From: Acidimicrobiia bacterium
GTDB taxonomy: Bacteria > Actinomycetota > Acidimicrobiia > Spongiisociales > UBA11373
Reading direction: 5' to 3'
Length of the DNA: 64,000 bases
Assembly (NCBI GenBank): GCA_036478235.1
Contig: JAZGDZ010000040.1
Span: 80,670-144,669 of the forward strand
Part shown: positions 41,585 to 58,275 of the stretch, one piece after another
How the letters are laid out: each line of letters opens with the position of its first letter
How positions within the stretch are numbered: the stretch's first letter is position 1
Notes under the pieces: generated by a model
The model's input: the letters and a program-made list of their open reading frames with translations, nothing else
Database searches by the model: none
Told to the model about the DNA's origin: nothing
Translations under genes and position numbers: made by a program

Positions 41585-41916
41585 CGGTCCGACTCCTCGA
41601 TCGCCTCTACGGTCACGAAGACGTCGGAGCCGTCCACCTCCACCTCGTACACCCCGACGGGTCTCGTCGCCGGCAGCGATGCCGGCTCGCCGGTGCGGAT
41701 GTCGAACTCGGAACCGTGGCGCGGGCACTCCACGGCGTCATCGAAGACCTCACCCTCGGCCAGCGACGCCTCGGCATGACTGCAGCGGTCGCCGATCGCA
41801 AAGACACCATCTCCCAGACGGAAGAGGGCGATGCTATGACCGGCGACATCCACTCGATGACCTCGACCCTCGGGGAGCTGGTCGATCGTGGCCACACGGC
41901 GCCGCTCAATTTTCAT
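41581..41916 (-). CDS. Rieske [2Fe-2S] ferredoxin-type protein (suf-associated)
   Basis: 111 aa with 'CSHAEASLAEGEV...CPRHGSEFD'. Sits between sufD and sufC as in Streptomyces-type suf operons. Confidence 0.85.
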   Translation of the reverse strand: MKIERRRVATIDQLPEGRGHRVDVAGHSIALFRLGDGVFAIGDRCSHAEASLAEGEVFDDAVECPRHGSEFDIRTGEPASLPATRPVGVYEVEVDGSDVFVTVEAIEESDR

Positions 41917-43148: not shown

Positions 43149-43201
43149 GGTGTCGGGTATCCGTCGATTTGGCTTGCGGGACTCTATTGACGGGGGTGGT
43201 G

Positions 43202-45058: not shown

Positions 45059-45059
45059 G

Positions 45060-45094
45060 TTATCCGTTATCCGTTATCGGTTATCCGTTGTCCG
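45060..45094 (+). repeat. heptanucleotide array TTATCCG x2 / TTATCGG / TTATCCG / TTGTCCG
   Basis: Five units. Complementary 'AACGGACAA' segments occur downstream at 45121-45129 and 45198-45206. Confidence 0.9.
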
Positions 45095-45224
45095 TCTGGA
45101 CGAGGATTGCGCCTACGGGGAACGGACAACTCGAGCACACCCCAGGGGCCGATGTCGGTCAAACGCGTCACAACGCCGCAGCAGGACGCCCGCTGAGAAC
45201 GGACAACGGCTCCGCAGGAGCCTC

Positions 45225-45744
45225 TCAGAGTTCGAACAACCGCGGCGTCGTCCCCTCCAGCCCGCGCAGGAAGTCGTAGTCGACCTCGACGCAACCGATC
45301 CCTCGATCCGCCGCCAGGATCCCTCGCCTGGGGTGTGATCGACTGGGCGGCGAGAATTCCCCGCACCGGAGCCAACGCCGAGTCCTTGTTGAGGAACTCC
45401 AGGTATCTGGTTAGCTGCTCGACCCCGGTCAACTCCCCTTTCCTCTTGATCTCGACGGCGACCACCTGGCCCCCCGAGTCCCGGCACAGCAGGTCGACGG
45501 GTCCGAGGTCGGTCATGTACTCGCGTTCGAGCATCTCCAGACCCTCCTCGATCGTCGCCGGGCGCTCGGCCAGGAGCGCCTGAAGGGTCTTCTCCACCCC
45601 ATCCTTGGAAAGCCCCGGATCGTCGCCCAGATCGTGGGTGATGTCGGACAACACCTCTTCCACGTGGATGGTGAGGGTCTCGCCTTTCTGGTTGGTCACC
45701 ACCCACTCGTGTTCGGACTCGACGAGGTGGTTGGGGGCGTTCAT
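45225..45744 (-). pseudogene. nucS: nucS (EndoMS) 3' portion: codons ~50-221, separated from its 5' end by the island and carrying a +1 frameshift
   Basis: '[16 protein letters not shown]...[61 protein letters not shown]'. Removing one C from the CCC run at 45321-45323 continues '[31 protein letters not shown]' (stop 45225-45227), the canonical NucS C-terminus. As assembled, the frame reads '[10 protein letters not shown]...' instead. Confidence 0.85.
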
Positions 45745-45755
45745 CCAATTGAAAG
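45739..45755. repeat. island junction 1 (att core region)
   Basis: 'gttcatCCAattgaaag' matches 54897-54913 'attcaaCCAgttgaggg' at 12 of 17 positions. The shared CCA is the nucS Trp49 codon on the minus strand. Confidence 0.75.
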
Positions 45756-45807
45756 CACTTTAAGTATACAATGGTTCTCGACGGCCAACCGGGGAAGGAG
45801 GCAACGG

Positions 45808-47319
45808 ATGAAGGTGGCCCTGTACCTCAGGATCTCGACCGAGGGCGAGGACGCCCACTCACTCGATAACCACGAGAAGGACCTACGTGCCTGGGCGGCC
45901 GAGGAGGGCTGGACGGTCGTCGAGTCCTACCGCGAGCAGAAGTCGGCCAAGCTCGGCTCGGAGCGACTCGTCCTCGAGGCGGCGGTGCAGGACGCCGAGG
46001 CGGGTAACTACGAGGGACTGCTGGTGTGGGCGGTCGACCGGTTCGGCCGGGGGCTCGACTCGGCGACGGCGTGGGTCCGGTTGCAACAGGCCGAGGTGGA
46101 CGTCTACGACCGATCCGAGAAGCGCCCACTGACCGAGGTCGAGTTCGCCGGTGCACTGTTCGCCTCCATCAGCGAGCGGAAGAAGAGCACGACACGGATG
46201 CGCCTCGGCCGGCAGGCCAAGGCTGAGGCCGGAAGGTGGCCGGGTGGGCACTTCCCGTTCGGCGTCGTGACCGACGACGACAACGTGCTCATCGAGAATC
46301 CGTCCCAGGCCGACGAGCTGCGGTCGATGGCGCAGGCCATCCTCACGGGACAATCGCCCGCACAGGTGGCGGGCGACCTCGATGCGCGAGGCGTCCGGTC
46401 GTCCACACGAGGAGGCCGCTGGTCGCCGGGCCGGGTCCGGCGCCTCCTCCGGCAGCCTCGGCTCAGCGAGGGGTACACGGAGTTTTGGGACGTGCGCCTC
46501 CCCCATCCGGTCATCCTCGACCCCGGACTGCACCAGCGCGTGCTCGACCGGCTGGACGCCAACCGGTTGAAGTTCACCCGTGTCCGGACCGGACCCAACC
46601 CGTATCCGCTGACCGGCCGGATCACCGATCCCGAGGGTCATCCCTGGACCGGACTCCCTCGTCGCTACAAGGGCAGGGTCATCCGGTACTACCGGTGCTC
46701 CCACTACCTGACGGACCCGGCGTGCGGCTGGCGGACGGCGCGGCTCATCCGGGCCGAGGAGGTCGAGGACGCCGTGTGGGACCAGCTGATGTACGTCCTG
46801 GGCGGAGGCAGCGCCGATGACCGGCCGCCGGGCGAGCGACGGTTCGCCCACTTGCACGAGGCGATCGTCGCCGAGATGACGAAGGTCGAGGCTCCCTCGG
46901 ACCAGACGGTCAAGGCCAAGGCGAAGGAGGTCCGGCGCCTCGAGGACGCACTGGCCGACGCGGACGTCGAGCGCCGGGTGTCGGACGACCCGGGCCGGGT
47001 GAGCAAGGCGGACAGGAAGCTCGAACAGCGGCTGGCGAACGCACGGCAGAAGCTGCGCGACCTGGAGGCGCTGAAGGCGATGGCCGACGAGGAACGATCC
47101 GTCTGGGAGGCGGTCGAGGAAGCGGCCCAGCGGGTCACCGCCCTCCGGGACGAGACCGACCCGGTGGCAAGGGGTCGCGTGTTCGCCGAGCTGGACATCA
47201 GCGTCCGACTTGATGAGCCCACGGTCTGGGAGGGGGCCGACTACGACGAGGGCCGGTATGGCATCCGGCTGAACGGCCGACTGGGCGAGGTCCCGTGGGA
47301 GTCGATGCGGCGGGGCTGA
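45808..47319 (+). CDS. large serine recombinase (integrase)
   Basis: ATG 45808 after 'GGAAGGAGG'. Resolvase domain 'MKVALYLRISTEGED...LLVWAVDRFGR', recombinase domain 'RWSPGRVRRLLRQPRLSEGY', Zn ribbon 'YYRCSHYLTDPACGW', coiled-coil C-terminus. 503 aa. Confidence 0.9.
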   Translation: MKVALYLRISTEGEDAHSLDNHEKDLRAWAAEEGWTVVESYREQKSAKLGSERLVLEAAVQDAEAGNYEGLLVWAVDRFGRGLDSATAWVRLQQAEVDVYDRSEKRPLTEVEFAGALFASISERKKSTTRMRLGRQAKAEAGRWPGGHFPFGVVTDDDNVLIENPSQADELRSMAQAILTGQSPAQVAGDLDARGVRSSTRGGRWSPGRVRRLLRQPRLSEGYTEFWDVRLPHPVILDPGLHQRVLDRLDANRLKFTRVRTGPNPYPLTGRITDPEGHPWTGLPRRYKGRVIRYYRCSHYLTDPACGWRTARLIRAEEVEDAVWDQLMYVLGGGSADDRPPGERRFAHLHEAIVAEMTKVEAPSDQTVKAKAKEVRRLEDALADADVERRVSDDPGRVSKADRKLEQRLANARQKLRDLEALKAMADEERSVWEAVEEAAQRVTALRDETDPVARGRVFAELDISVRLDEPTVWEGADYDEGRYGIRLNGRLGEVPWESMRRG

Positions 47320-47353
47320 CCCTTACTTCCGCGTTCTGGGACCCTCTCCGTAG

Positions 47354-48034
47354 TTACGGAGTCACCGAGTACGTTTCGCACCGGTCCAGACACCGGTGCA
47401 GCCAACTCGCAAGTCCAAGGAGCTCGAGTACCGCCGCCTCTTCCTGATCCGGCTCCCAGTCGTCGTCGTGTGAACGTGGGTTGCGGATACCGTGAATCGC
47501 GCCCTGCATCAGGAACCGCAGCCCTTCGTGCTCGTCCTTCTCCGACGTCGTGGTCAGGTCGGTCATTTGGAGCTGCTGATCGGGGGGATCTCTGAATGCC
47601 GAGCCCATCAGACCCTTGCCGTCCGCGGTGCTGTGGGTCAGCCTCTTCACCCTGTTGTTCACGCTCTGGAACGCCTTCCTAACGGCTTCCGTCCGAAGGC
47701 CACTCGTGAACGCCAGGCGGCTACTGCGCACGACCCGGTCGTGGAGGTCGCGAGCGGCAAACTTCTGCGCAGGTGTAACCGGAAGGGAAGTTGTGGAGGT
47801 CGTTGCACCCGTTATCGCACTCGGTGGCGGAGCACCAGCCTCGGAAGATCCGGCGGCGATTGCTCGGACCAGCGAGCCAACCTCGATGAGAGTCGCGTCG
47901 TCCACGCCATACCGCTCGAGGGGAATGCCGTGCTGATTCGCGAGCACATAGAGCGCATGGCGCCGCGACATCAGATGATGATCATTGATCAGTCGCGTGA
48001 CACGGTTCGTCAGATTCTGAGCGCTCCAACTCAT
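47354..48034 (-). CDS. TIGR02391 / Ymh-family (Abi_C-like) protein
   Basis: The C-terminal 'LRTEAVRKAFQSVNNRVKRL...GLMGSAF...GLRFLMQGAIHGIRNPRSHDD' fits the Ymh pattern (RNPxxH). Start set at ATG 48034 to avoid overlapping the upstream gene (48097 also possible). Confidence 0.6.
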   Translation of the reverse strand: MSWSAQNLTNRVTRLINDHHLMSRRHALYVLANQHGIPLERYGVDDATLIEVGSLVRAIAAGSSEAGAPPPSAITGATTSTTSLPVTPAQKFAARDLHDRVVRSSRLAFTSGLRTEAVRKAFQSVNNRVKRLTHSTADGKGLMGSAFRDPPDQQLQMTDLTTTSEKDEHEGLRFLMQGAIHGIRNPRSHDDDWEPDQEEAAVLELLGLASWLHRCLDRCETYSVTP

Positions 48035-48068
48035 CTTTCGCTTGAGGGCGGCCCGGACAGCGGTGTCG

Positions 48069-48299
48069 TCAGCCACCTCTGGCCTTCTTTGCCGCATTGA
48101 CCGCGTTGCGAACGGAGGAGGGCGGCGCGTTGAGTATCTGAGAAATCCGAGGATTCTCGAACCCGGCCTCCGACATCTCGACCGCAAGCTGTGCCTGTGT
48201 CTCGACGTCTCGAGCCAGCGCTATAGCGAGCAGCCTGGTGGTGTCAAGCTGTAGCTCGATGAGTCTCTCCAGCTGTTCTTCCATTCTCTTCTCGGTCAT
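48069..48299 (-). CDS. small HTH protein, paralog 3 of 3
   Basis: 76 aa with '...LLAIALARDVETQAQLAVEMSEAGFENPRISQILNAPPSSVRNAVNAAKKA'. Same layout as the two upstream genes. Confidence 0.5.
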   Translation of the reverse strand: MTEKRMEEQLERLIELQLDTTRLLAIALARDVETQAQLAVEMSEAGFENPRISQILNAPPSSVRNAVNAAKKARGG

Positions 48300-48307
48300 C
48301 TGTATGC

Positions 48308-48502
48308 CTATCCCTTCTTCGCCCTCGCCAAGGTCACGTTCACCGTGTTCGGGGTCGTGCCCAGAAGCGTTGCGATCCTCGACCGCGAGATACCCGCTCG
48401 CCTTAGCTCCCGTATGGCATCCGCCTGCGTCGGAACCTGCAATCGAACGAGCACCGCCAGCAGCCGCGCGATGTCATCCCCGTACTGGTCATTGTTGGTC
48501 AT
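48308..48502 (-). CDS. small HTH protein, paralog 2 of 3
   Basis: 64 aa with 'IARLLAVLVRLQVPTQADAIRELRRAGISRSRIATLLGTTPNTVNVTLARAKKG'. Confidence 0.5.
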   Translation of the reverse strand: MTNNDQYGDDIARLLAVLVRLQVPTQADAIRELRRAGISRSRIATLLGTTPNTVNVTLARAKKG

Positions 48503-48505
48503 TAC

Positions 48506-48733
48506 TCATCCCTTCGCGATCATCTGCGACACCGCCTGGACGGATTTCCCGAGGATCGCCCCAATCTCCGCTTGCGTCAGCCCAGCGTCAGAGAGCAACT
48601 TGTCGATCGAGCGAGGACGCGGCCGCGCAAGCTCCGCATCCTCGATCAGAACTCGGTGCGTTTGGAGCGCCACAAGCGCGGACAGCTTGGCGTCCATCGA
48701 CTTGAGCAGCGCCCCGGTCTCTTCGTTCATCAC
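48506..48733 (-). CDS. small HTH protein, paralog 1 of 3
   Basis: 75 aa with 'LSALVALQTHRVL...SIDKLLSDAGLTQAEIGAILGKSVQAVSQMIAKG'. Confidence 0.5.
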   Translation of the reverse strand: MMNEETGALLKSMDAKLSALVALQTHRVLIEDAELARPRPRSIDKLLSDAGLTQAEIGAILGKSVQAVSQMIAKG

Positions 48734-49264
48734 TTGAACTCCCTAGGTTGAATTGATGAAGCGGCGCATCTTAGCTCCAGAATCCCACAATCACAAGGCC
48801 AGTGCGCTTATCTGTTCACTGGCCGCAGGCGTGATTCAAGGTGTGCCGATCGCCTGGTCGGTCTGATGTCACTAAAACACCAGCTCACAGCGCTATCAAG
48901 GACATGAGCGCGGTTTAACAGCGGCAGGCGCTTTCAGAGCAGAAAGGCCAAGCTTTAGCGAACGCATGTACCCTCCACTACATCCGGCCCGTTCAGCGAG
49001 GCCCGAACCCGCTGACCCAGACCGAAGGAGCACCCCTTGTGATCGTAGGAGGGCCCCCGTGCACCAGACACGGGGGCCTCAGGTCTTGCGTCGTTCAGGA
49101 ATCAGGACTGTTCATCGTTCCCACCTGTGAGAGCCCCATGATTCGTGCGACCTCAACGGCGGAGGACCGCTGGTGCTTCACCGAGGAAGGTGGGTGGGAC
49201 CCATGCTGATGGGTAGGGTCGCGGCATGGGTGAACTCCGTTACCCAACTCACCGGGAGTGAATT

Positions 49265-50020
49265 GTGGCGGCGTTGTGGTACGTCAAATCGACGGTGCTC
49301 TTGTTGTGGCTCGCCGTTCGCCCTTTGGGAAAGGTGCTGCCTTCGCTTGCGGAGATCCCCTTGACCGCGGCCATCTATTTCGGGTTGTGGCGGAATACTT
49401 TCTCGGGGTCGACCCCAACGGTGGAGTGGCAGCGCGACCTGTTCGATTGGATGCACGACCACCGTTGGGAGGTTGTGCTGGGAACTGCTGTGGTCCTCAT
49501 TCTTATCGTCGCGCTTCGTAAGGAGTTCAAATTCAATCCGCCTTTCGGCGTTGCCCTGAAAGTACTTTCCCCCGAAGTGACTTCGAGACTCTATGGCTCG
49601 CGAGTCATGGTGCGAATCGAGGTCACAACGCGGAGAAGCGGCAGATTCCGCGCCTATCTCGCCGACACGGATGGCGGACGGGCCTCAACGTCGCGGATTC
49701 CCTTGGAGTGGACGAATGAGGACGCTCCCGAAATTGACCTGATTCCGCATCAGCCCCAACAGATAACGGTGGGGCGATTGGACTACTGGACAAAGGATGA
49801 TGAGTTGAGCGAATTCCAATTGGTTCCCAGAAGTCCCGGCCTGGACCGCCACCCCATTATCGCGGTAGACGGTGTTGATCCCTTCAACGTTCGGGTCGAT
49901 GTGGTGGACGTCAAGACATTCCAGTCGGGCACCGTGTGCACCCGTGTGTGGGTCGAAACTCTCGGTGACCGCCATTTCGTCCCCCGCTCGGAGGAGATTC
50001 CCGAGTTTGCTGGTTCTTGA
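49265..50020 (+). CDS. membrane protein (3 N-terminal TM segments plus a beta-rich C-domain), unknown function
   Basis: 251 aa from a GTG start. 'STVLLLWLAV', 'PLTAAIYFGLW' and 'VVLGTAVVLILIVAL', then a soluble domain. No family recognised. Confidence 0.5.
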   Translation: MAALWYVKSTVLLLWLAVRPLGKVLPSLAEIPLTAAIYFGLWRNTFSGSTPTVEWQRDLFDWMHDHRWEVVLGTAVVLILIVALRKEFKFNPPFGVALKVLSPEVTSRLYGSRVMVRIEVTTRRSGRFRAYLADTDGGRASTSRIPLEWTNEDAPEIDLIPHQPQQITVGRLDYWTKDDELSEFQLVPRSPGLDRHPIIAVDGVDPFNVRVDVVDVKTFQSGTVCTRVWVETLGDRHFVPRSEEIPEFAGS

Positions 50021-50275
50021 TGAGTTCCTGGTAAGTGTCAGGGTCCGACACCGGCCCGTTCGGGGCCCTGTTCGACCGGTTCGATCCCGATATGCGGCCC
50101 TCAGGATGACCCGAGACAGGTTTGCGACCTCATCCCGTATGGATTCGACCCGGGAATAGCCCTAGTGAGACAGGAGGGCCCCCGGCACACTACGACGAAC
50201 ACCGGGAGCCTCCTGCATCGGGACGGGATCCCGTGGGGTCGACACGAACCTCACGAGGACCCATGCAAGATCTTC

Positions 50276-50692
50276 CTACGGCTCGACCAAGGGCCCTCCT
50301 TCGGTGAGCGAACTGACGTCGTCCGGAACGAGCACATCGAGGTCGTCGATTGCCTTCTCGACCGTCAGGGTCGATCCGACGTCGGCCAGTGCCAGCGCGG
50401 CGACGCACCGCCAGAAGTGCCTCACGGCGGGCGGCGAGTCGTTGTCGAAGGACTGCCCGGTGTCCAGGTTTCCTATCTCGCCCTCGAAGGAAAGCAGCTC
50501 GGCGAGGTCCACGACGTCGGGGGCGCTGCGCAGCTTGACGGCCGTGCCCGGCGTCGAGAGGGCCAAGAGCAGCGACTCGGCGACGTCGAGGAGCTGTGCG
50601 TCGCACTGGAAGGATGCCAGGTCGCGCCAGGCCACCATGATGTGACCCAGGCCCAGCCGTTCCTCGTCGGTGAGGGTGACCGTGTGGTTCAT
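50276..50692 (-). CDS. hypothetical protein (island operon gene 4)
   Basis: 138 aa, acidic with protein-like composition. ATGA overlap with the 42-codon ORF upstream. Confidence 0.5.
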   Translation of the reverse strand: MNHTVTLTDEERLGLGHIMVAWRDLASFQCDAQLLDVAESLLLALSTPGTAVKLRSAPDVVDLAELLSFEGEIGNLDTGQSFDNDSPPAVRHFWRCVAALALADVGSTLTVEKAIDDLDVLVPDDVSSLTEGGPLVEP

Positions 50693-50817
50693 TTGGTGCT
50701 TACCTCACCCTCGCTCAGTGTGATCGTGGTCTCCGACTCGGCCGGACGTTCCTGCTCGGCCTCCTCTAGGTATTCCTCGAACAGCGTCAGCAGCTTCCTG
50801 ATGAACGCCGTGAACAT
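50689..50817 (-). CDS. possible 42-aa protein (island operon gene 3)
   Basis: 'MFTAFIRKLLTLFEEYLEEAEQERPAESETTITLSEGEVSTK', a helical acidic peptide. ATG 50817. Stop overlaps the next start. Confidence 0.3.
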   Translation of the reverse strand: MFTAFIRKLLTLFEEYLEEAEQERPAESETTITLSEGEVSTK

Positions 50818-50837
50818 GCGCCGTTCGTCTGCGGCGG

Positions 50838-51122
50838 TCACGTGTCTACGTGGGGGGTCAGGAGGTACACCCGATCGTCCAGCACGTCGTTGATGATCGT
50901 CAGCTCCCCGGCGTTGACGTGCGCCTCGATCTTGGCCTCGATGATGCGCTCCGTGGCGCCGCACCCGTCGGCCATGAGATCGGGGATTCGCTTCTCCCCG
51001 CCCCACTGGTTCCGGATGATCAGCTCTTTGGGACGTCCTCGCTCGTCACGAGGTACGACCCAGTCGCCGGTCACCACCGTCGTCTTACTGTCGTTCATTC
51101 CTGTTCCTCCTTCAGTCGTCAC
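50838..51122 (-). CDS. hypothetical protein (island operon gene 2)
   Basis: 94 aa with '...GDWVVPRDERGRPKELIIRNQWGGEKRIPDLMADGCGATERIIEAKIEAHV...'. 4-nt overlap with gene 1. Confidence 0.5.
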   Translation of the reverse strand: MTTEGGTGMNDSKTTVVTGDWVVPRDERGRPKELIIRNQWGGEKRIPDLMADGCGATERIIEAKIEAHVNAGELTIINDVLDDRVYLLTPHVDT

Positions 51123-51763
51123 AGGCCTCGACCGCCGCTAGTCACCAACGCCTCATATCCGCCGGCCTTCTCAATGACCTCAGCGGCGTAGGCCATGAAG
51201 GTCCCGGGATCGACGTCGTCGTAGAAGCCTTCCATTCGGCCGTCTTCCCACGAGTCCTTCATGGCGCTTTGCCAAGTGCCTAGGTCCTCGAAGGCCTGTC
51301 CCTTCGCCAGGGACTTCACGTCGAGGTCGACGTAGACCCGCAGCTCAGATCGGACCACCTCGTGCCACTCCGGTTCCTCGTAGAGGTGGGGCTTGCAGTG
51401 ACCCACGTCGGGATCGACCAGCCGCCTGCACGAGCCACCGGCCCGTGTCTTACTGCCACAGAGAACGCGTTCCTTCTTGGCGGTGTCGTACTGTGAGGAC
51501 CGGTCTTCGGCTCTGACCTCGACGGCGACGACCTTCGTCAGGTCGTAGTCGGAGGTCGGCAACCCGTCGGCGCGCGTCATCTCGATCTTGGTGAAGCGAC
51601 CGTCGTCGTCCCGCTCGATGCTGTGCGACGTGACGATCGGGTCGTCGTAGTTCGTGTTGTCGTAGCGGACCCACAGGCAGTACCGCTCGGGCAGTGCGTC
51701 GTCGCCGAGGTCGGGCGTGACGTTGACCGTCTCGATGATGTCGGTGTCGGTGTCTGTGTTCAT
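51119..51763 (-). CDS. hypothetical protein with Cys/His knuckle (island operon gene 1)
   Basis: ATG 51763 after 'GAAAGGAAC'. 214 aa. 'CGSKTRAGGSCRRLVDPDVGHCKPH' looks like a zinc-binding motif. No family recognised. Confidence 0.55.
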   Translation of the reverse strand: MNTDTDTDIIETVNVTPDLGDDALPERYCLWVRYDNTNYDDPIVTSHSIERDDDGRFTKIEMTRADGLPTSDYDLTKVVAVEVRAEDRSSQYDTAKKERVLCGSKTRAGGSCRRLVDPDVGHCKPHLYEEPEWHEVVRSELRVYVDLDVKSLAKGQAFEDLGTWQSAMKDSWEDGRMEGFYDDVDPGTFMAYAAEVIEKAGGYEALVTSGGRGL

Positions 51764-52456
51764 GGTGTGTTCCTTTCTGATGTTGTCGTTCCGACTCCCG
51801 GGTTCCCCCAGCACATCTGGGACTGAACACGGACCCTGTGGGCGAACCCACGACCGGGGTCACCCGGTGGTCGGAATCCTCTGGTCGAAATTGTTTCAGG
51901 CCGTCTTGGGATAGTCGACGACTTTCTTGGGAAAACGAGCGGGACCCTGAGCGGACCTCTGTCGAGGTCCTAGTCCTCGACGGTTGGTTACCCGTGATCG
52001 GGTCGAAACCTCGTCTCGGGGCGGGCTGTCGACCGCTCGCCCGCCGTTTCCGCCCGCCGGGTAGACCGGTTCGGTCCCGCCTACGGCGGCAAACGGTCGT
52101 TCACGTGTCGGGCTCCGAATCCGCTCGTCTGGACTCATGTGCACCCAGGCAGGCAGGAGAAGGAGTTCACCCTCTGCCCAGGGCCGGAGCCCGACGCGTG
52201 ATCTGATCCGACCGCCGGATCCCAGAAGGAGGAGCGCGCGTGATGTGCTCCGACGGTCGGAAACCTGTGACCGACGCCGGTCCCGGAGGACGGGGACTCG
52301 TGTCTGCTACTCCTCCCGGGAGAGAGGAGCGACCTGCTGACGAAGCGAGTCGCTAGGAGGAAGCAGAACCGCAAAGTGCATGACCACCTCCTACGCCGCC
52401 GTCCGGTATTGACCCGGCGTCGGTGAATCTAGATTGTCAGTGTGCCTGTGGCTGGC

Positions 52457-53632
52457 CTACGAGGCCGCCATCTGCAACGTCTTGTATGAATCGTCGCCCG
52501 CACCTATGGGCCTCGCGTCCATACGCGAAAACGCAATCAGCGCCGTCTGGTTCAGTTCGGCATATCGTTCCTGAAGGCGTCTGACCGTGAACCCCTCGAC
52601 GTCACGGATGGCGTAGTTCTGCAAATCCCCGAACAAGATCGGAAGATTCGACGCTGCCACGGGAGCCATTTCGGCATCTACGAAAAGCGGATAGCCGAGC
52701 AGCGATTTGGGTCGCCGCTGACCGGCCACGCCCTCGTCGGTACCGAACAGCAGGGGCCTCTCGTCGAGGTCCTTCACCAGTCGGAGCTGCTTGACCGCGT
52801 CGGGTGAGACCACCCACACCGCGTCGTCCAGGAAGGCATCATCGAGCGAGGCCTCCATGCCCACCAGGTCGTCGTAAATGAACGACGTCGTCTGGCCGGT
52901 CGTGGTGGTGACTCCGACCGTTGCGTTGGTGATGATCCCCTCCGGCTGCGCCGACCCGGTCCCCGTGATCAGGAAGGGCGCCTGAACCCTGCCGATGCGT
53001 TCGCCCAACCTTGCGGCGAGCCAGGTGTCCAGCGAAACCCCGGTGTCCTGGAGCAGCTGGTTGGAGACACGGATCATCTTGGATGACCACGTGAACGCCT
53101 TCAGGACCGTCTGCCCGAAGGCGACGTCCTGCTCGGCCGCGGCGGTGTTCTCCGCCAGCAGCTCGCCCGTATTTCCAACGTCCGAACTGTTCGGGTAGGG
53201 GAGGTCGTTGCCGGTCGCCGTCGGGATGAACTCGATGCCCGATGCCCGGCGCAGCCCGCCGAACTTCTTCTGGGCCGTCTTGATCTTCGCGACGAACCCC
53301 TCCGGGACGGTGAACCCGCCCTCGCTACCGACGCCCACTCCCTGGGCGCGGGATTCGTTCTGGACCCACCGATCCTCGAGCAGGGCACGGTGATCCGACG
53401 GCATGCGCTCCATGCCGAACCGGACGTAGGTCTCGAATGCCTTCTCGTACTCCACGTCGTCGGCGCTCAACGTCTCGGGCTGCGAGTGCGGCTCGATCTT
53501 GAGCGGGTCGAGCTGGCGGCTGGCTAGCTCCTTGTTGACCAGACCCTCGATGTCCTTGGCTGCGGCGATGATGTTGTCCGCGGACATGCCGGTCAGGTCG
53601 AAGTCCTTTGTCTTCCTCATTCGATTCGTCAT
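52457..53632 (-). CDS. phage major capsid protein, HK97 fold/family
   Basis: 391 aa. Follows the HK97-family (TIGR01554-like) pattern: 'EGGFTVPEGFVAKI', 'AFTWSSKMIRVSNQLLQDTGV', 'PFLITGTGSAQPEGII', 'YDDLVGMEASLDDAFLDDAVWVVSPDAVKQLRLVKD', 'LLGYPLFVDAEM', 'ILFGDLQNYAIRD'. Confidence 0.9.
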   Translation of the reverse strand: MTNRMRKTKDFDLTGMSADNIIAAAKDIEGLVNKELASRQLDPLKIEPHSQPETLSADDVEYEKAFETYVRFGMERMPSDHRALLEDRWVQNESRAQGVGVGSEGGFTVPEGFVAKIKTAQKKFGGLRRASGIEFIPTATGNDLPYPNSSDVGNTGELLAENTAAAEQDVAFGQTVLKAFTWSSKMIRVSNQLLQDTGVSLDTWLAARLGERIGRVQAPFLITGTGSAQPEGIITNATVGVTTTTGQTTSFIYDDLVGMEASLDDAFLDDAVWVVSPDAVKQLRLVKDLDERPLLFGTDEGVAGQRRPKSLLGYPLFVDAEMAPVAASNLPILFGDLQNYAIRDVEGFTVRRLQERYAELNQTALIAFSRMDARPIGAGDDSYKTLQMAAS

Positions 53633-53707
53633 GTCGTAATCCTCTGTGGTGTGTAGGCGCGCGTGGTGATGACACGGCCTAGTGCTTGTGTCGGGTGGGG
53701 AGGAGGA

Positions 53708-53890
53708 GGGTGCGTTCTACGCGGCCCCGATATTCCCGAGGTTCCCGGCTTGGTTCGCTAGCGGGTGCAGGCTGTGCGGCCCGCCGCGTTGTCTCGACGG
53801 TGGAGGGAGGGTGACCCCCTCCTCGTTTCCTGGTCAGGTGCAGATCGTGCGGCCCGACCACGGGATCGGTGGGTGCGGGCTACGCGGCCC
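53708..53890 (+). repeat. four iteron-like 20-bp direct repeats upstream of the capsid gene
   Basis: 53708 'gggtgcgttctacgcggccc', 53763 'gggtgcaggctgtgcggccc', 53836 'aggtgcagatcgtgcggccc', 53871 'gggtgcgggctacgcggccc'. Shared core is GGTGC-N7-GCGGCCC. Confidence 0.75.
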
Positions 53891-54248
53891 ATCCGAGTCC
53901 AGTCGAACAATACCAGGCGAAAGCGGCCCCAAAACCCGGTCGGCGGTTGCGGCCGGTCGGGTGCCGGTTGCGTCACGTTGGGCGGCGGTCTGGCCCGGTC
54001 TCGTGAGGATCCAGGGCGGAAAATCGCGGAAAATCTCAGCTCCCAGTTTCGGGTGAATCGAATCGGCCAGGGGGAGGTCGATCGGAGGGGCCAGCAAAAT
54101 CGGGGTGCAAAGTCGGAAACAGACTGGAAACATCATCGAGAAACTGCCATCACTGCGTAGGTATTCGAGGAGCCACCAGATGGGGAACTTTCGTCGCAGG
54201 CCCGATCGGCTCCCGGTCGGCCGCCCCGGTCCCCAGTAGCGTGTCGAC

Positions 54249-54584
54249 GTGGATGCAACCGAGTTTGCCATCAGGTGGGTTGGGTTGTTGGTCGGTGCGC
54301 CCCTTGGGTTGCTGTTCATGTGGATGTTGCTCTCGCTCCCCTGGACGGAGAACCAGCGGTTCCCTGTCTGGTCTTTCAGGAAACTGCGGACCGCGATCAA
54401 AGAGAACCGTCGACGTGACTCCTTTTCCGCGTTCGGGAGACTGCTCGTCGATCTGATCGTCCTGCTCCTGACCGTCCTATGGACCCTTCTGTTGGTATTT
54501 GCTGTCGTCGCGTTTGTGTGGTTCATAGTGAACCAAGTGATCGTCACCCACGGCTTCACTAGACAAGCGCCACGCGGCTTCTAG
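54249..54584 (+). CDS. small membrane protein (2-3 TM)
   Basis: 111 aa. 'WVGLLVGAPLGLLFMWMLLSL' and 'LLVDLIVLLLTVLWTLLLVFAVVAFVWFIV' are strongly hydrophobic. Preferred over the overlapping 241-aa antisense ORF. Confidence 0.5.
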   Translation: MDATEFAIRWVGLLVGAPLGLLFMWMLLSLPWTENQRFPVWSFRKLRTAIKENRRRDSFSAFGRLLVDLIVLLLTVLWTLLLVFAVVAFVWFIVNQVIVTHGFTRQAPRGF

Positions 54585-54887
54585 GGCCGTTGAGTCTGAC
54601 CTCCCCTCCCCGATCTTCGACGTCCCGTTCCGTCCGGTCCGGCCTCCCCTGGTTTCCGGCCCGCCCTGTCTCCTTCCTGACCTCCAGAGGGCGCGCCCCT
54701 GTTTCGCACCGAGCGGAAACTGCGGGCGGCGCCCGTATAGGCTCTATCTCTCTATCTCTCTATACCAGTATGTGTGTCACACATCTAGACCTTGCGGCGA
54801 GGGTTCACCCCAGATACCCCAGATACACGTCAAAGTATCTGGGGTAGGTTTACCCCTGTCGTGTCGAGCCGACCAGCCGTGGATTAC

Positions 54888-55049
54888 TCAAGGTTCATTC
54901 AACCAGTTGAGGGGCTTGTAAGCGCCGCCGTCGGCGTGAATCGCCACGCAGCCGTCGGCCTTGATCATCAGGAGCCGAACGGCCGACGGAAGGTGAGCCG
55001 AAAGCCTTCCCGAGTAGTCGACCGAGCAGCGAGCCACGACGAGGCGCAT
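54888..55049 (-). pseudogene. nucS: nucS 5' fragment (codons 1-49 plus 4 island-derived codons and a stop)
   Basis: '[49 protein letters not shown]|LNEP*'. Matches my recollection of the mycobacterial NucS N-terminus ('[20 protein letters not shown]...[20 protein letters not shown]'). Under 60 aa, so absent from the ORF track. Confidence 0.85.
54897..54913. repeat. island junction 2 (att core region)
   Basis: 'attcaaCCAgttgaggg'. See 45739-45755. Confidence 0.75.
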
Positions 55050-55131: not shown

Positions 55132-55953
55132 GTGAACGTCGATGTCGCCGTTATCCCTTGCGCCGGTGCCGGTACCCGCATGCGCCCTGCCACCCGGGCC
55201 CTTCCCAAGCCGCTGCTCCCCGTAGTCGATCGGCCTGTGATCCAGTACGTGGTCGAGGAGGCGGTGGCCGCAAGCATCTCGGAGATCATCCTGGTGGTCG
55301 ACAAGCGTCCCGGGGACCCGGTCATGGCCCACTTCGTCGAACCTCCCGCGCTCGACGGGCTGGAGGAGGTCGTCTTCACCCGGGTCCTGCAGCCGGAACC
55401 GCGCGGTCTGGGCGACGCCGTGCTCCGTGCATCCGAGGCCGTAGGCGACCGGCCCTTCCTCTGCATGCTCTCCGACATGTTTCCGCGGCCGGGTCGCTCA
55501 TACGCCCGCCGTCTGGTCGAAGCGTTCGACGGTCGAACCGTGCTCGCGGTGCAGCCGGTGCCGGATGAGTACCTGCTCAGGTGGGGCTTCGTCGCCACCG
55601 GCGGCGATCCTCATGACGGAATCGTCGAGGTGACGGGCGCGGTCGAGAAGCCGGGACCAGATGCTCCGTCCAATCTGGGTCTGACGGGGCGATATGTGCT
55701 CACCGCGGAGATCTTCGAGTTGCTGGCATCCCAGGATCCGGGCCACGGCGGTGAGATCCAGCTCACCGATGCGATCGACGCCGTGGCCCGGGCCCGAGGG
55801 GCCACCGGCCTGATCGTCGGCGACGACCTGTTCGACACCGGGATCCCGGCCGGGGTTCTCGAAGCAACCGCGGCGGTGGGCTTGGCGCGGCCCGACCTGG
55901 CGAGCGGCTTCCGAGAGGTTCTGAGCCGAATGCTGGACGAGCCGGGGGGTTAG
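55132..55953 (+). CDS. galU: UTP--glucose-1-phosphate uridylyltransferase
   Basis: 'AVIPCAGAGTRMRPATRALPKPLLPVVDRPVIQYVVEEA', 'VEKP', 'GRYVLT', 'EIQLTDAI'. Confidence 0.85.
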   Translation: MNVDVAVIPCAGAGTRMRPATRALPKPLLPVVDRPVIQYVVEEAVAASISEIILVVDKRPGDPVMAHFVEPPALDGLEEVVFTRVLQPEPRGLGDAVLRASEAVGDRPFLCMLSDMFPRPGRSYARRLVEAFDGRTVLAVQPVPDEYLLRWGFVATGGDPHDGIVEVTGAVEKPGPDAPSNLGLTGRYVLTAEIFELLASQDPGHGGEIQLTDAIDAVARARGATGLIVGDDLFDTGIPAGVLEATAAVGLARPDLASGFREVLSRMLDEPGG

Positions 55954-56050
55954 GTGTCAGGTGTCGGGTGTCAGACATCAGACATCAGACATCAGACATC
56001 AGACATCAGACATCAGACATCAGACATCAGACATCAGACATCAGACATCG
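55953..56050 (+). repeat. 14-unit heptanucleotide array (GGTGTCR x3, GACATCA x10, GACATCG x1)
   Basis: Starts on the last base of the galU stop codon. Perfect 7-nt register over 98 nt. Confidence 0.95.
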
Positions 56051-56063
56051 AAAAGGATCCCAT

Positions 56064-56105
56064 TCTGAAGTCTGAAATCTGAGATCTGCATTCTGAAATC
56101 TGGTT
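56064..56105 (+). repeat. 6-unit heptanucleotide array TCTGAAG/TCTGAAA/TCTGAGA/TCTGCAT/TCTGAAA/TCTGGTT (imperfect inverted partner)
   Basis: The reverse complement of TCTGAAG is CTTCAGA, against CATCAGA in the upstream array (6/7 match). 13-nt spacer. Confidence 0.9.
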
Positions 56106-56665: not shown

Positions 56666-56721
56666 GACATCAGACATCAGACATCAGACATCGGACATCG
56701 GACATCGGACATCGGACATCG
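56666..56721 (+). repeat. 8-unit heptanucleotide array (GACATCA x3, GACATCG x5)
   Basis: Starts 7 nt after the GNAT stop. Same unit and orientation as 55974-56050. Confidence 0.95.
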
Positions 56722-56734
56722 AGAGCGTGTCAGA

Positions 56735-56769
56735 TCTGGAATCTGAGATCTGAAATCTGAGATCTGACG
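56735..56769 (+). repeat. 5-unit heptanucleotide array TCTGGAA/TCTGAGA/TCTGAAA/TCTGAGA/TCTGACG
   Basis: Same unit family and orientation as 56064-56105. Confidence 0.9.
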
Positions 56770-56846: not shown

Positions 56847-56874
56847 GGTTCGGTGGGCTTCAGCCCACCGAACC
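56847..56874. terminator. 12-bp perfect hairpin at the sufB 3' end (candidate bidirectional terminator)
   Basis: 'GGTTCGGTGGGC-ttca-GCCCACCGAACC'. The sufB stop codon lies in the loop. Confidence 0.5.
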
Positions 56875-58275
56875 TACCATCTGCAGTTCGACCAGACGGT
56901 TCAGCTCGACGGCATACTCCATGGGGAGTTCCTTGACGATGGGCTCGATGAACCCGGCCACGATCATCGCCGTCGCCTCCTCCTCGGAGAGGCCCCGGCT
57001 CCTCAGGTAGAAGAGCTGGTTGTCGCCCACCTTGGAGATCGTGGCTTCATGCCCGATCTGGGCATTGGCCTCTTCGATCTCCATGTATGGATAGGTGTCG
57101 GACCGGCTGTCCTCGTCGAGGATGAGAGCATCGCAGCGAACGAACGACTTGACGTTTTCGGCGCCGTTCTCCACTCGGATGAGCCCGCGATACCCGGCCC
57201 GTCCTCCGTCCTTGGAGATCGACTTCGAGGTGATCAGCGACGTCGTGTTGGGGGCGGCATGGACGATCTTGGCACCGGCGTCCTGGTGCATGCCCTCGCC
57301 GGCGAAGGCGATCGAGAGCACCTCGCCGTGGGCTCCCTCCTCCATCAGCCAGACAGCGGGGTACTTCATCGTCAGCTTCGAGCCGAGGTTGCCGTCCACC
57401 CACTCCATCGTGGCGTTGCGGTAGGCAGCGGCACGCTTGGTCACCAGGTTGTACACGTTGTTCGACCAGTTCTGAATCGTGGTGTACCGGCACCGGCCAC
57501 CCTCTTTGACCACGATCTCGACCACAGCCGAGTGCAGCGAGTCGCTCGAGTAGACGGGTGCGGAGCACCCCTCGACGTAGTGCACGAACGCCCCTTCGTC
57601 GACGATTATCAGCGTCCGCTCGAACTGGCCCATGTTCTCGGCGTTGATGCGGAAGTAGGCCTGCAGCGGCTGGTCGACGTGAACGCCCGGCGGGACGTAG
57701 ATGAACGAGCCACCCGACCACACGGCTGAGTTGAGGGCGGCGAACTTGTTGTCGTTCGGCGGGATGATCGTCGCGAAGTACTTCTGGACGATCTCGGGGT
57801 AGTCGCGGAGCGCGGTGTCCATGTCGCAGAAGAGGACCCCCATCTCTTCGAGATCCTCCCGGTTGCGGTGGTAAACGACTTCGCTTTCGTACTGCGCGGT
57901 GACCCCGGCGAGGTACTTGCGCTCTGCCTCCGGGATACCCAGCTTCTCGTAGGTCTCCTTGATCGATTCCGGGACCATGTCCCAGTCGTTGGCCTGACCC
58001 TCGGTCGGCTTGATGTAGTAGTAGATGTTGTCGAAGTCGATATCTTCGAGCCGCCCCCCGCCTCCCCAGGTGGGAATCGGCTTACGGAGGAACCGCCGGT
58101 AGGCCTTCAGCCGGAAGTCGAGCATCCAGTCAGGCTCGCCCTTCATGGACGAAATCTCGCGGATGATCTCCTCGCTCAAGCCCTTACGCGGCTTGAACAC
58201 GTAATCCTCTTCGTCGGACCACCCGAGCTCGTATTTGCCGAGATCGAGATCGACTGTTGCCATGGAAACGATCAA
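56860..58275 (-). CDS. sufB: Fe-S cluster assembly protein SufB
   Basis: 471 aa. '[29 protein letters not shown]', '[23 protein letters not shown]', '[26 protein letters not shown]', ending '...VGSVG'. Confidence 0.95.

What the first reader, a model, noticed from the sequence alone, without database searches (positions are those of the whole stretch)
45739..55049. 9.2-kb serine-recombinase island inserted inside the mismatch-repair endonuclease gene nucS, with reconstructable att sites
Seen in sequence: the minus-strand ORF 55049-54888 encodes '[49 protein letters not shown]' followed by 'LNEP*'. This is the NucS/EndoMS N-terminus. The rest of NucS ('[16 protein letters not shown]...[24 protein letters not shown]...') begins 9.16 kb away at 45744. 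Joining 54903 to 45747 gives in-frame '[12 protein letters not shown]', which fits the mycobacterial 'YKPLNWMSPP' as I recall it, and a ~221-aa protein of normal NucS length. The junctions carry an imperfect 17-bp direct repeat (45739 'gttcatCCAattgaaag', 54897 'attcaaCCAgttgaggg'). Only CCA is identical and it is flanked by mismatches, so it is the candidate crossover. The inferred attP ('cattcaaCCAAttgaaag') has TTCAA-N4-TTGAA dyad symmetry, as expected for a serine-integrase site. A 503-aa large serine recombinase gene starts 60 bp inside junction 1. Established knowledge: NucS replaces MutS/MutL in most Actinobacteria, and its loss gives a hypermutator phenotype. Reversible gene-interrupting elements are known elsewhere: SpyCIM1 in mutL of Streptococcus pyogenes, skin in sigK, the Listeria comK prophage, and the Anabaena fdxN element with serine recombinase XisF. 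Inference: this could be a nucS-targeting element that either switches the mutation rate by excision and reintegration or simply knocks out mismatch repair. I am not aware of a described element that targets nucS.
Basis: partly seen in the sequence, partly recalled or inferred. Interest (0 to 1): 0.9.

Follow-up and report, generated by a model that had tools for sequence, protein, structure and literature searches.

The report
Mobile island splitting the nucS repair gene

Summary
nucS is split at codon W49/M50 by a 9,158-bp island. Deleting the island in silico gives a sequence that aligns without any gap to a 98.7%-identical island-free contig (L171). The island encodes an intact 503-aa large serine recombinase (LSR), an HK97-type capsid protein, small HTH proteins and a defence-like gene, but no terminase, portal or tail genes. 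It therefore resembles the integrase-plus-capsid "candidate PICI / phiRv1-like" elements.

First, LSRs only 34-42% identical to this one (L178; L175/L176) abut nucS at exactly the same TGG|ATG position, so nucS is a shared target of several lineages in this LSR clade. I found no description of this in the literature library. Second, nucS here also carries a 1-bp insertion that removes the last 31 residues, including the clamp-binding motif. The same insertion is present in island-free L171 and absent from the next relative, L172.

The most parsimonious order is frameshift first, then insertion into a dead gene. Insertion, then frameshift, then precise excision in L171 is the alternative. A working nucS on/off switch is not supported in this lineage and remains untested for the family. 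This is a new variant of a known kind.

The parts
54903..55049 (-). nucS 5' fragment, codons 1-49 (M1 to W49). The ORF then reads into the island as LNEP* down to 54888.
54880..54927 (.). attR (island arm | CCA 54903-54905 | nucS arm). The inferred crossover dinucleotide is CA at 54904-54905.
   Evidence: The host arm is identical to the empty sites L171 and L172.
45748..54905 (.). The inserted island, 9,158 bp. The boundaries are ambiguous by the shared CCA. GC content dips to 0.57-0.62 in its middle, against 0.64-0.70 in the flanks.
45722..45770 (.). attL (nucS arm | CCA 45745-45747 | island arm). The inferred attP, GGTTCATTCAAC-CA-ATTGAAAGCAC, has imperfect dyad symmetry.
45225..45744 (-). 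nucS 3' fragment, codons 50-221 of the native frame, with the native stop at 45225-45227. A frameshift interrupts it, so the ORF as it stands runs on to 45067 (225 aa).
45321..45323 (-). +1 frameshift: CCC where all relatives have CC (coding strand AGGGAT versus AGGAT). It puts the last 31 residues ([31 protein letters not shown]), including the clamp-binding motif, out of frame.
   Evidence: The same base is present in L171 and absent from L172 and from 8 more distant relatives.
45808..47319 (+). Large serine recombinase, 503 aa, intact. Ser10 lies in MKVALYLRIST. Domains are Resolvase, Recombinase and Zn-ribbon, followed by an Ala/Glu/Arg-rich stretch that looks like a coiled coil.
   Evidence: It is full length against the 73%-identical P0002.
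47354..48187 (-). Hypoth_Ymh / TIGR02391-domain protein. It matches the PADLOC model PD-Lambda-3_B (E 7e-13) and is a candidate defence cargo gene. It is not present in the related element L081.
48069..48733 (-). Three small helix-turn-helix proteins (76, 64 and 75 aa). They are candidate regulators or a possible directionality factor, but this is untested.
   Evidence: weak matches to Sigma70_r4, HTH_23 and HTH_7.
49265..50020 (+). 251-aa ORF with no family match.
50276..50841 (-). A 138-aa and a 50-aa gene pair. Apart from the LSR and the capsid gene, these are the only genes also conserved in the related element L081 (about 66% aa identity). Their function is unknown. Because they co-occur with the LSR, they are the best candidates for a cognate directionality factor; this is an inference.
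50838..51814 (-). 94-aa and 231-aa ORFs of unknown function. They occupy the position where L081 carries an AAA_25 / phrog_6012 replicative helicase, which this island lacks.
52457..53632 (-). HK97-type major capsid protein, 391 aa, intact.
   Evidence: Pfam Phage_capsid E 1e-47, TIGR01554 E 2e-71, phrog_10. It is 69% identical to the L081 capsid.
53633..54226 (.). About 600 bp upstream of the capsid gene with no convincing ORF, conserved at 72% nucleotide identity with L081. It contains three copies of a 20-nt repeat, GGTGCrGnnnnnGCGGCCC, at 53764-53891.
   Evidence: No Rfam match.
54249..54584 (+). 111-aa hydrophobic ORF with no family match, lying in the island-specific right end.

Best explanation
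**What it is.** A 9,158-bp integrative element has been inserted by its own large serine recombinase into nucS of an uncultured Acidimicrobiia bacterium. The element carries the integrase, an HK97 capsid gene, a few regulators and a defence-like cargo gene. It has no terminase, portal, tail or lysis genes.

**How it inserted.** Recombination occurred at a 2-bp crossover (CA on the + strand, which is the TG of codon W49). It joined an element attP with imperfect dyad symmetry to an attB made of one of the most conserved stretches of nucS (…CTCAAC TGG ATGAACGCC…). That stretch is used by at least two other, distantly related LSRs at the same position, so it is the preferred landing site of several lineages in this LSR clade.

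**What it means here.** In this lineage nucS also carries a +1 frameshift that removes the C-terminal 31 residues, including the beta-clamp-binding motif. The same lesion is present in an island-free relative 98.7% identical to this genome. The gene was therefore most likely already non-functional when the island arrived. On that reading the insertion is recent, probably selectively neutral, and not a working on/off switch here.

**Shown.** The split, the seamless junction, the empty sites, the shared frameshift, the LSR domains, and the same junction in distant LSR relatives.

**Inferred.** The order of events, the position of the crossover dinucleotide, the loss of NucS function, and satellite-like dependence on a helper phage.
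For: **The split and the empty sites.**
- Split and reconstruction.
- The island-deleted window aligns to L171 over 4,096 bp with 53 mismatches and no indel. It aligns to L172 at 98.2%.
- Gene order is conserved with relatives: the NTP-transferase gene on one side of nucS and the sigma-factor gene on the other.

**The recombinase and its sites.**
- LSR domains and the catalytic Ser.
- attP has a 14/22 dyad centred on CA.
- The exact 14-mer TGGATGAACGCNCC is present in 67 of 80 related nucS loci.

**Relatives at the same site.**
- In L178 an LSR 34% identical by BLASTP (36% by phmmer) ends in …CAAC TGG ATGA. The sequence continues as NucS residues 48-79 (59% identity, E 2e-8).
- In L175/L176 an LSR 42% identical by BLASTP (43% by phmmer) ends in …CTCAAC TGG ATGATCGCCCCCAA. 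This is 19/20 to the nucS core, and 0 of 200 shuffles gave a match.

**The frameshift.**
- It is present in the window and L171, and absent from L172 and from 8 further relatives.
- No other real gene in about 25 kb of syntenic flank shows a frame change.
- The three-way comparison places the window and L171 as sisters.
- The C-terminal clamp motif is needed in vivo (PMC8228993).

**Timing.** The reconstructed NucS deviates at only 2 of 113 conserved columns, so inactivation is recent.
Against: - The order of events rests on parsimony (2 events against 3) and on three short contigs. Recombination between strains could have moved the frameshift allele.
- Differences between the window and L171 are not transition-dominated (32 ts: 21 tv). 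A long-standing NucS-null lineage would be expected to show such a bias. The differences are clustered, however, which suggests imported tracts.
- All six substitutions within nucS among the three haplotypes are synonymous. This is compatible with residual selection on the gene.
- The closest LSR relative (73% identical, L081) is not next to nucS.
- The nucS-side flank in L175 is only 21 nt.
- No reads were available, so neither junction nor the frameshift is verified at read level.
Confidence: 0.7

Rival explanations
1. The island is a reversible mutator switch. It excises (LSR plus a directionality factor) and reintegrates, turning nucS on and off in the way SpyCIM1 does for mutL.
For: - The junction is seamless and in frame.
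- The LSR is intact.
- Occupied and empty sites coexist at about 99% identity.
- The target site is conserved across distant LSRs.
- The nucS codons are otherwise undecayed.
Against: - In this lineage the empty allele (L171) carries the same frameshift. Excision therefore yields a NucS lacking its last 31 residues, including the clamp motif (PMC8228993).
- No directionality factor was identified.
- Only one occupied site is known for this element.
- There is no excision evidence of any kind.
Confidence: 0.1
2. The island came first. It inserted into a functional nucS in the common ancestor of the window and L171, the dead gene then acquired the frameshift, and the island later excised precisely in the L171 lineage.
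For: - The frameshift is shared by the occupied and the empty allele.
- LSR excision is precise and would leave exactly the attB seen in L171.
- The LSR is intact.
Against: - It needs three events instead of two.
- It requires a directionality factor that has not been identified.
- No third genome carries the island.
Confidence: 0.17
3. The apparent insertion is an assembly artefact: a chimeric join of a mobile-element contig into the chromosome, or the frameshift is a consensus error.
For: The source is a metagenome assembly and no reads could be inspected.
Against: - Both junctions fall on the same codon and have the anatomy of an LSR att site.
- The flanks are colinear with two independent empty-site contigs without a gap.
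- Independent assemblies show other LSRs at the same nucS position.
- The frameshift recurs in a different assembly accession (L171, GCA_030624285.1).
- Neighbouring genes show no frame errors.
Confidence: 0.03

Closest known systems
phiRv1 / phiRv2 of Mycobacterium tuberculosis and the 'candidate PICIs' of mycobacteria (integrase plus major capsid protein regions; PMC10654092)
   Same: - It is a small integrated element in an actinobacterium of roughly 10 kb, the size I recall for these elements.
- It is mobilised by a large serine recombinase. phiRv1 integrase is a large serine recombinase, and one of the mycobacterial PICIs illustrated in the paper carries a serine integrase.
- It carries an HK97-type capsid gene but is not a complete phage.
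- The relatives L081 and L183 add an AAA_25 helicase.
   Different: - There is no detectable sequence relationship beyond family level. The LSR is only about 25% identical to known actinophage integrases.
- No protease, terminase or primase gene was detected here.
- The target is a protein-coding repair gene, whereas phiRv1 uses a repetitive element (my recollection, not tested).
- I did not compare directly with phiRv1 sequences.
SpyCIM1 in mutL of Streptococcus pyogenes (PMC3430984) and the mobile elements in mutS of Vibrio and other Beta-/Gammaproteobacteria (PMC5296598)
   Same: A phage-like chromosomal island sits at a fixed, conserved position in a mismatch-repair gene, and related elements use the identical site in different hosts (here).
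   Different: - The target here is nucS, the non-canonical EndoMS pathway of Actinobacteria, not mutS or mutL.
- The recombinase is a serine recombinase.
- Growth-phase excision and a mutator phenotype are shown for SpyCI and for the Vibrio element, but nothing is shown here.
- In this genome the gene is frameshifted independently of the island.
Gene-splitting elements moved by large serine recombinases (SPbeta/SprA in spsM, PMC5499854; skin/SpoIVCA in sigK and the A118-type comK prophage, from memory)
   Same: An LSR sits at the edge of the element. The insertion lies inside an ORF, and precise recombination can rebuild the coding frame across a short core.
   Different: - Those systems are developmentally or infection-regulated and have known directionality factors. 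None is identified here.
- This element is much smaller than those I recall and is not a complete prophage.

Membership tests
Large serine recombinase (serine integrase) | N-terminal resolvase-type catalytic domain with a serine nucleophile | tested here: met
   PF00239 E 7.8e-19 over residues 3-144. The protein aligns to the TP901-1 integrase catalytic domain, with Ser10 in the conserved R-x-S-T motif.
Large serine recombinase (serine integrase) | C-terminal Recombinase domain and zinc-ribbon domain | tested here: met
   PF07508 scores 21.6 bits against a cut-off of 21.1, which is marginal. PF13408 scores 28.5 bits against 25.3. phrog_95 integrase gives E 8e-58 over residues 1-452.
Large serine recombinase (serine integrase) | Short att sites with a non-palindromic 2-bp crossover, and an attP with imperfect dyad symmetry | tested here: met
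   The identity shared at the junctions is CCA. The attP dyad is 14/22 and centred on CA. attB is identical to the empty sites.
Large serine recombinase (serine integrase) | Catalyses attP x attB recombination, with excision requiring a directionality factor | not testable with these tools
   This needs an in vitro or in vivo recombination assay. No RDF homologue was found.
Phage satellite / PICI-like element (phiRv1-like) | Integrase plus major capsid protein in a region far smaller than a phage, without tail or lysis genes | tested here: met
   The 9,158-bp island has an LSR and an HK97 capsid gene. No terminase, portal, protease, tail or lysis family was detected in Pfam, PHROGs or NCBIfam. 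This matches the operational definition used in PMC10654092.
Phage satellite / PICI-like element (phiRv1-like) | Own replication module (primase / helicase) | tested here: not met
   None was detected in the window island. The related element L081 has an AAA_25 / phrog_6012 helicase at the equivalent position.
Phage satellite / PICI-like element (phiRv1-like) | Induction and packaging by a helper phage | not testable with these tools
   No helper phage is known. IMG/VR scans with the LSR, the capsid and the att sequences gave no close relative.
Regulatory-switch ('active lysogeny') elements such as SpyCIM1/mutL | Insertion interrupts an otherwise functional host gene, and precise excision restores it | tested here: not met
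   The junction itself is restored in silico. However, nucS carries an independent +1 frameshift that is also present in the empty-site allele L171.
Regulatory-switch ('active lysogeny') elements such as SpyCIM1/mutL | Related elements occupy the identical site in other strains or species | tested here: met
   L178 and L175/L176 have LSRs 34-42% identical (BLASTP) at the same TGG|ATG position of nucS. L081 and L183 do not.
Regulatory-switch ('active lysogeny') elements such as SpyCIM1/mutL | Observed dynamic excision and reintegration, with a phenotype | not testable with these tools
   No reads and no culture are available.
NucS / EndoMS (the interrupted host gene) | NucS_N and NucS_C domains in one roughly 220-aa protein with a C-terminal clamp-binding motif | tested here: inconclusive
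   Both domains are full length, and the motif PRLFEL is present, only after removing the island and one extra base. As encoded, the gene is split and frameshifted.

The most novel reading that the evidence does not exclude
nucS is the dedicated attachment site of a clade of serine-recombinase-mobilised, capsid-bearing satellites of Actinobacteria. In hosts with an intact nucS these elements would act as reversible mutator switches. That would make them the counterpart, for the non-canonical EndoMS/NucS mismatch-repair pathway, of SpyCI in mutL and of the mobile elements in mutS. The frameshifted lineage seen here would then be a by-product: either a mutator allele fixed while the gene was interrupted, or a neutral landing pad.
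Probability: 0.2. Interest if true: 0.85.

Novelty: new variant of a known kind. Interest (0 to 1): 0.62.

Why it matters
NucS replaces MutS/MutL in Actinobacteria, and losing it gives a transition-biased hypermutator (PMC8228993). Mobile elements at fixed sites in mutL and mutS are known modulators of mutation rate. I found no such element described for nucS.

Three LSR lineages, only 34-42% identical to one another, use the same nucS codon. This suggests that the third mismatch-repair system is also a recurrent target of mobile elements.

The finding also yields a defined attB/attP pair and an LSR far from those in use (about 25% identical to known phage integrases), which could be tested as a recombination tool.

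Separately, a natural nucS frameshift shared by two assemblies points to nucS-defective Acidimicrobiia lineages in the environment.

Tried and rejected
**Close relatives of the LSR in the sequence collections.**
- Scans of the metagenome and IMG/VR collections with the single LSR sequence found nothing.
- A two-sequence profile found only LSRs of 25-30% identity. None of their 80 loci carries a NucS fragment.

**IMG/VR scans with DNA patterns.**
- Scans for the attP sequence and for a conserved int-upstream pattern gave no hit.
- Scans for the nucS core gave three hits, all chance matches inside unrelated ORFs.
- The capsid profile in IMG/VR gave nothing closer than 41% identity, and then only over short segments.

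**Known phages.** The phage database holds no close relative: the LSR is about 25% identical and the capsid about 35%. No phage carries the nucS attB. The few 'phage' records that encode a NucS are unannotated contigs from human faecal samples plus a distant haloarchaeal virus nuclease.

**Other feature scans.** No Rfam family, no tRNA, and no informative promoter or terminator signal was found.

**Hypermutator signature.** I looked for a transition excess between the window and L171. The ratio was 32 ts to 21 tv, which shows no excess. The differences are clustered, suggesting recombination, so the test is inconclusive.

**Long-term decay of nucS.** I found none.

**A second copy of the island.**
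- A capsid protein identical apart from its start codon (P0130) is recorded on a 145-kb NCBI contig, but that contig could not be retrieved.
- Exact look-ups of two other island proteins returned only the window's own contig.

**L081.** I considered and rejected the idea that its flank is a divergent nucS.

**Provenance.** The source accessions appear in no paper in the library.

**Not attempted.** I did not try structure prediction of the unknown ORFs. Only single sequences could be submitted, which rarely gives usable models.

Full report
**1. The observation**

The window is part of a 173-kb metagenome contig, GCA_044345325.1 JAZHCF010887529.1. Its NucS relatives place it in the Acidimicrobiia.

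On the minus strand, 55049..54903 encodes NucS residues 1-49. The ORF then runs into foreign sequence (LNEP*). Residues 50 onward resume 9.16 kb away at 45744.

Joining W49 (54903-54905) to M50 (45742-45744), and correcting a frameshift described in section 4, gives a 221-aa protein. It matches Pfam NucS_N and NucS_C over their full lengths. It aligns end to end at up to 83% identity with uninterrupted nucS in 80 genomes.

At the DNA level the joined sequence AAGCCCCTCAAC-TGG-ATGAACGCC is the same as in relatives. No second nucS copy lies in the window.

Three details need correcting. The stated join duplicates the W codon. The two 17-mers share 12 of 17 positions. A frameshift in the 3' fragment was missed.

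**2. Empty sites**

An exact-sequence cluster look-up with the window's own 3' fragment ORF returned near-identical NucS proteins. Their contigs could be fetched.

- **L171** (GCA_030624285.1, 4,096 bp) carries an uninterrupted nucS. It aligns to the island-deleted window over its whole length with 53 mismatches and no indel.
- **L172** (GCA_044232415.1, whose contig prefix JAZHCE is adjacent to the window's JAZHCF, so I take it to be a sibling metagenome assembly) is also uninterrupted. It aligns at 98.2% identity by BLAST.

Gene order around nucS is the same in all three, with the NTP-transferase gene on one side and the sigma-factor gene on the other. The island is therefore a genuine insertion of 9,158 bp. 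Its presence is polymorphic among genomes about 1-2% apart. A chimeric assembly is very unlikely.

**3. The island**

- **Recombinase.** The island begins 60 nt inside the left junction with an intact 503-aa large serine recombinase. It has Resolvase, Recombinase and Zn-ribbon domains and phrog_95. Ser10 aligns to the TP901-1 catalytic region.
- **Other genes.** It also encodes the following:
  - a Hypoth_Ymh protein that matches the defence model PD-Lambda-3_B;
  - three small HTH proteins;
  - several ORFs with no family match;
  - an intact HK97-type major capsid protein.
- **Absent functions.** No terminase, portal, protease, tail, lysis or replication gene was detected. There is also no tRNA and no Rfam match.
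- **att sites.** The inferred attP (GGTTCATTCAAC-CA-ATTGAAAGCAC) has its best dyad, 14 of 22 positions, centred on the CA of the shared CCA. This is the geometry expected for a serine integrase with a 2-bp non-palindromic crossover.
- **Closest relative.** The only close relative is an 8-kb contig, L081. Its LSR is 73% identical and its capsid 69% identical. It shares three things with the island: the 138-aa plus 50-aa gene pair, the capsid gene, and about 600 bp of conserved non-coding DNA upstream of the capsid. At the position where the window has two unknown ORFs, L081 carries an AAA_25 / phrog_6012 helicase.
- **Classification.** By the operational definition used for mycobacteria (integrase plus major capsid protein; phiRv1 and phiRv2 are of this kind), this is a PICI-like or satellite-like element (PMC10654092). 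It lacks a recognisable replication module, and helper dependence cannot be tested.

**4. The frameshift**

Relative to 8 related nucS genes, the window has one extra base (coding strand AGGGAT versus AGGAT; an extra C within window 45321-45323 on the + strand). It shifts the frame after codon 190.

The last 31 residues, which include the clamp-binding motif (PRLFEL), are perfectly preserved but out of frame. According to the review PMC8228993:

- the C-terminal clamp-binding residues are required for a low mutation rate in vivo;
- loss of nucS raises transitions but not indels.

The same extra base is present in island-free L171 and absent from L172. It is therefore seen in two different assembly accessions. 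No other real gene in about 25 kb of syntenic flank shows a frame change. I take it to be a real mutation.

In the three-way comparison the window and L171 are sisters: 32 sites separate L172 from both, against 5 and 11 private sites. The frameshift is thus a shared derived character, and the island is private to the window.

The parsimonious history is frameshift first, then insertion into an already defective gene. The alternative is insertion, then frameshift, then precise excision in L171. It needs one more event and cannot be excluded.

Either way both lesions are recent. The reconstructed protein deviates at only 2 of 113 columns that are at least 95% conserved, within the normal range of functional homologues. 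All six substitutions within nucS among the three haplotypes are synonymous.

A transition excess expected of a NucS-null lineage is not seen (32 ts: 21 tv between the window and L171). The differences are clustered, which suggests recombination, so this test is inconclusive.

**5. Do relatives target nucS?**

The word-index search found only one close LSR relative. The exhaustive search found five representatives at E <= 1e-30. Percent identities below are phmmer values from that search. BLASTP values for the same pairs are 2-3 points lower.

| Locus | LSR protein | Identity to window LSR | What lies next to the LSR |
|---|---|---|---|
| L178 | P0138 | 36% | The LSR gene runs straight into nucS: …GGCCAAC TGG ATG AAC GCT CCC AAC…, encoding NWMNAPNTLVEGEGRWEVSNSRGERLLILMDE (NucS residues 48-79, 59% identity, E 2e-8) |
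| L175 / L176 (two sequencing runs) | P0136 | 43% | The LSR gene ends in …CACTCAAC TGG ATGATCGCCCCCAA, then the contig ends. This is 19/20 to the nucS core, with no match in 200 shuffles |
| L081 | P0002 | 74% | The flank shares only CATCCA with nucS and does not encode NucS |
| L183 | P0141 | 34% | An analogous capsid + helicase + LSR element lies next to a 78-aa ChlI/ComM-like fragment |
| L177, L179 | P0137, P0139 | 41%, 34% | No junction on the contig |

In both L178 and L175 the LSR's last codons (…T-G-stop) are read from the att core. In the window and L081 the LSR faces the opposite way.

These three LSRs (window, P0136, P0138) are only 34-42% identical to one another by BLASTP. The W49/M50 site of nucS is therefore a target shared by several lineages of the clade, although not by all of them.

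The site is nearly invariant. The exact 14-mer TGGATGAACGCNCC is present in 67 of 80 related nucS loci. That is the kind of sequence a site-specific element would be expected to exploit.

**6. Comparison with known systems and novelty**

Phage-like islands at fixed sites in mismatch-repair genes are known. Examples are SpyCI in mutL (PMC3430984) and the mobile elements in mutS across Beta- and Gammaproteobacteria (PMC5296598). LSR elements that split genes are also known, such as SPbeta/SprA in spsM (PMC5499854).

Four searches of the paper library found no element described in nucS. I therefore class this as a new variant of a known kind.

The 'switch' reading fails its defining test in this genome. 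It stays open for the family, because whether occupied nucS genes elsewhere are otherwise intact is unknown.

**7. Verdict**

Interest is moderate to high.

- In favour: a new and apparently recurrent mobile-element target in the NucS repair pathway, with a defined att pair and a divergent integrase.
- Against: the organisms are uncultured, there is a single occupied locus for this element, the supporting contigs are short, and the evidence suggests the island is not what inactivated nucS here.

Noticed in passing
window 45059-45095, 55952-56102, 56666-56767: The host intergenic regions around nucS and the GNAT gene hold perfect or near-perfect heptamer tandem arrays: GTTATCC x5, TCAGACA x11, TCTGAAA x6 and GACATCG x8. 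Between the window and the 98%-identical contig L172, two of these arrays differ by exactly 7 bp and 42 bp, that is, by 1 and 6 units. The arrays are therefore hypervariable between strains.
   Followed up: partly
L175 1087-1100 and L178 about 50-64: Besides the nucS junction at the 3' end of the LSR gene, L175 has a second nucS-core-like 14-mer (TGGATGAACGCTCC) 18 nt upstream of the LSR start codon. L178 has GAGATGAACGATCTC about 55 nt upstream. The LSR gene thus looks bracketed by direct nucS-like repeats. This could be a mini-element, tandem integration or an operator. It is unexplained and the contigs are too short to resolve it.
   Followed up: partly
window 53633-54226 (repeats at 53705-53891): About 600 bp upstream of the capsid gene has no convincing ORF yet is 72% identical to the related element L081. 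It contains three copies of a 20-nt motif, GGTGCrGnnnnnGCGGCCC. It could be an origin, a packaging site or a regulatory region. There is no Rfam match.
   Followed up: no
window 47354-48187 (-): The island carries a Hypoth_Ymh / TIGR02391 protein that matches the PADLOC model PD-Lambda-3_B (E 7e-13) and more weakly a HEPN model. No PD-Lambda-3 partner gene was recognised next to it. It may be anti-phage cargo.
   Followed up: partly
L183 1-10131: A more distant LSR (34% identical by phmmer) sits at the edge of an analogous element (HK97 capsid, AAA_25 helicase and small ORFs). Its 3' end overlaps a 78-aa ChlI/ComM-like gene fragment next to a UPF0102 gene. The same element architecture therefore seems to use a different conserved gene as its target.
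   Followed up: partly
window 54742-54830: Near the right end of the island there are short perfect repeats (CTCTATCT x2.8 and ACCCCAGAT x2.2). There is also an inverted repeat, CCCCAGATAC…GTATCTGGGG, about 80 nt from attR. L081 has a similar CTATCTC and GTGTGTCACA arrangement. These may be protein-binding sites.
   Followed up: no
protein P0130: A capsid protein identical to the island's, apart from a later start codon, is recorded on a different NCBI contig of 145,300 bp. This would be a second assembly carrying the island. The contig could not be retrieved, so it is unknown whether it too lies in nucS.
   Followed up: partly
window 41916-43170 and 56860-58275: Two sets of SUF iron-sulfur assembly genes (SufB/SufD-type) flank the nucS region on either side, together with a UDG gene next to the sigma-factor gene. 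This arrangement is conserved in relatives.
   Followed up: no
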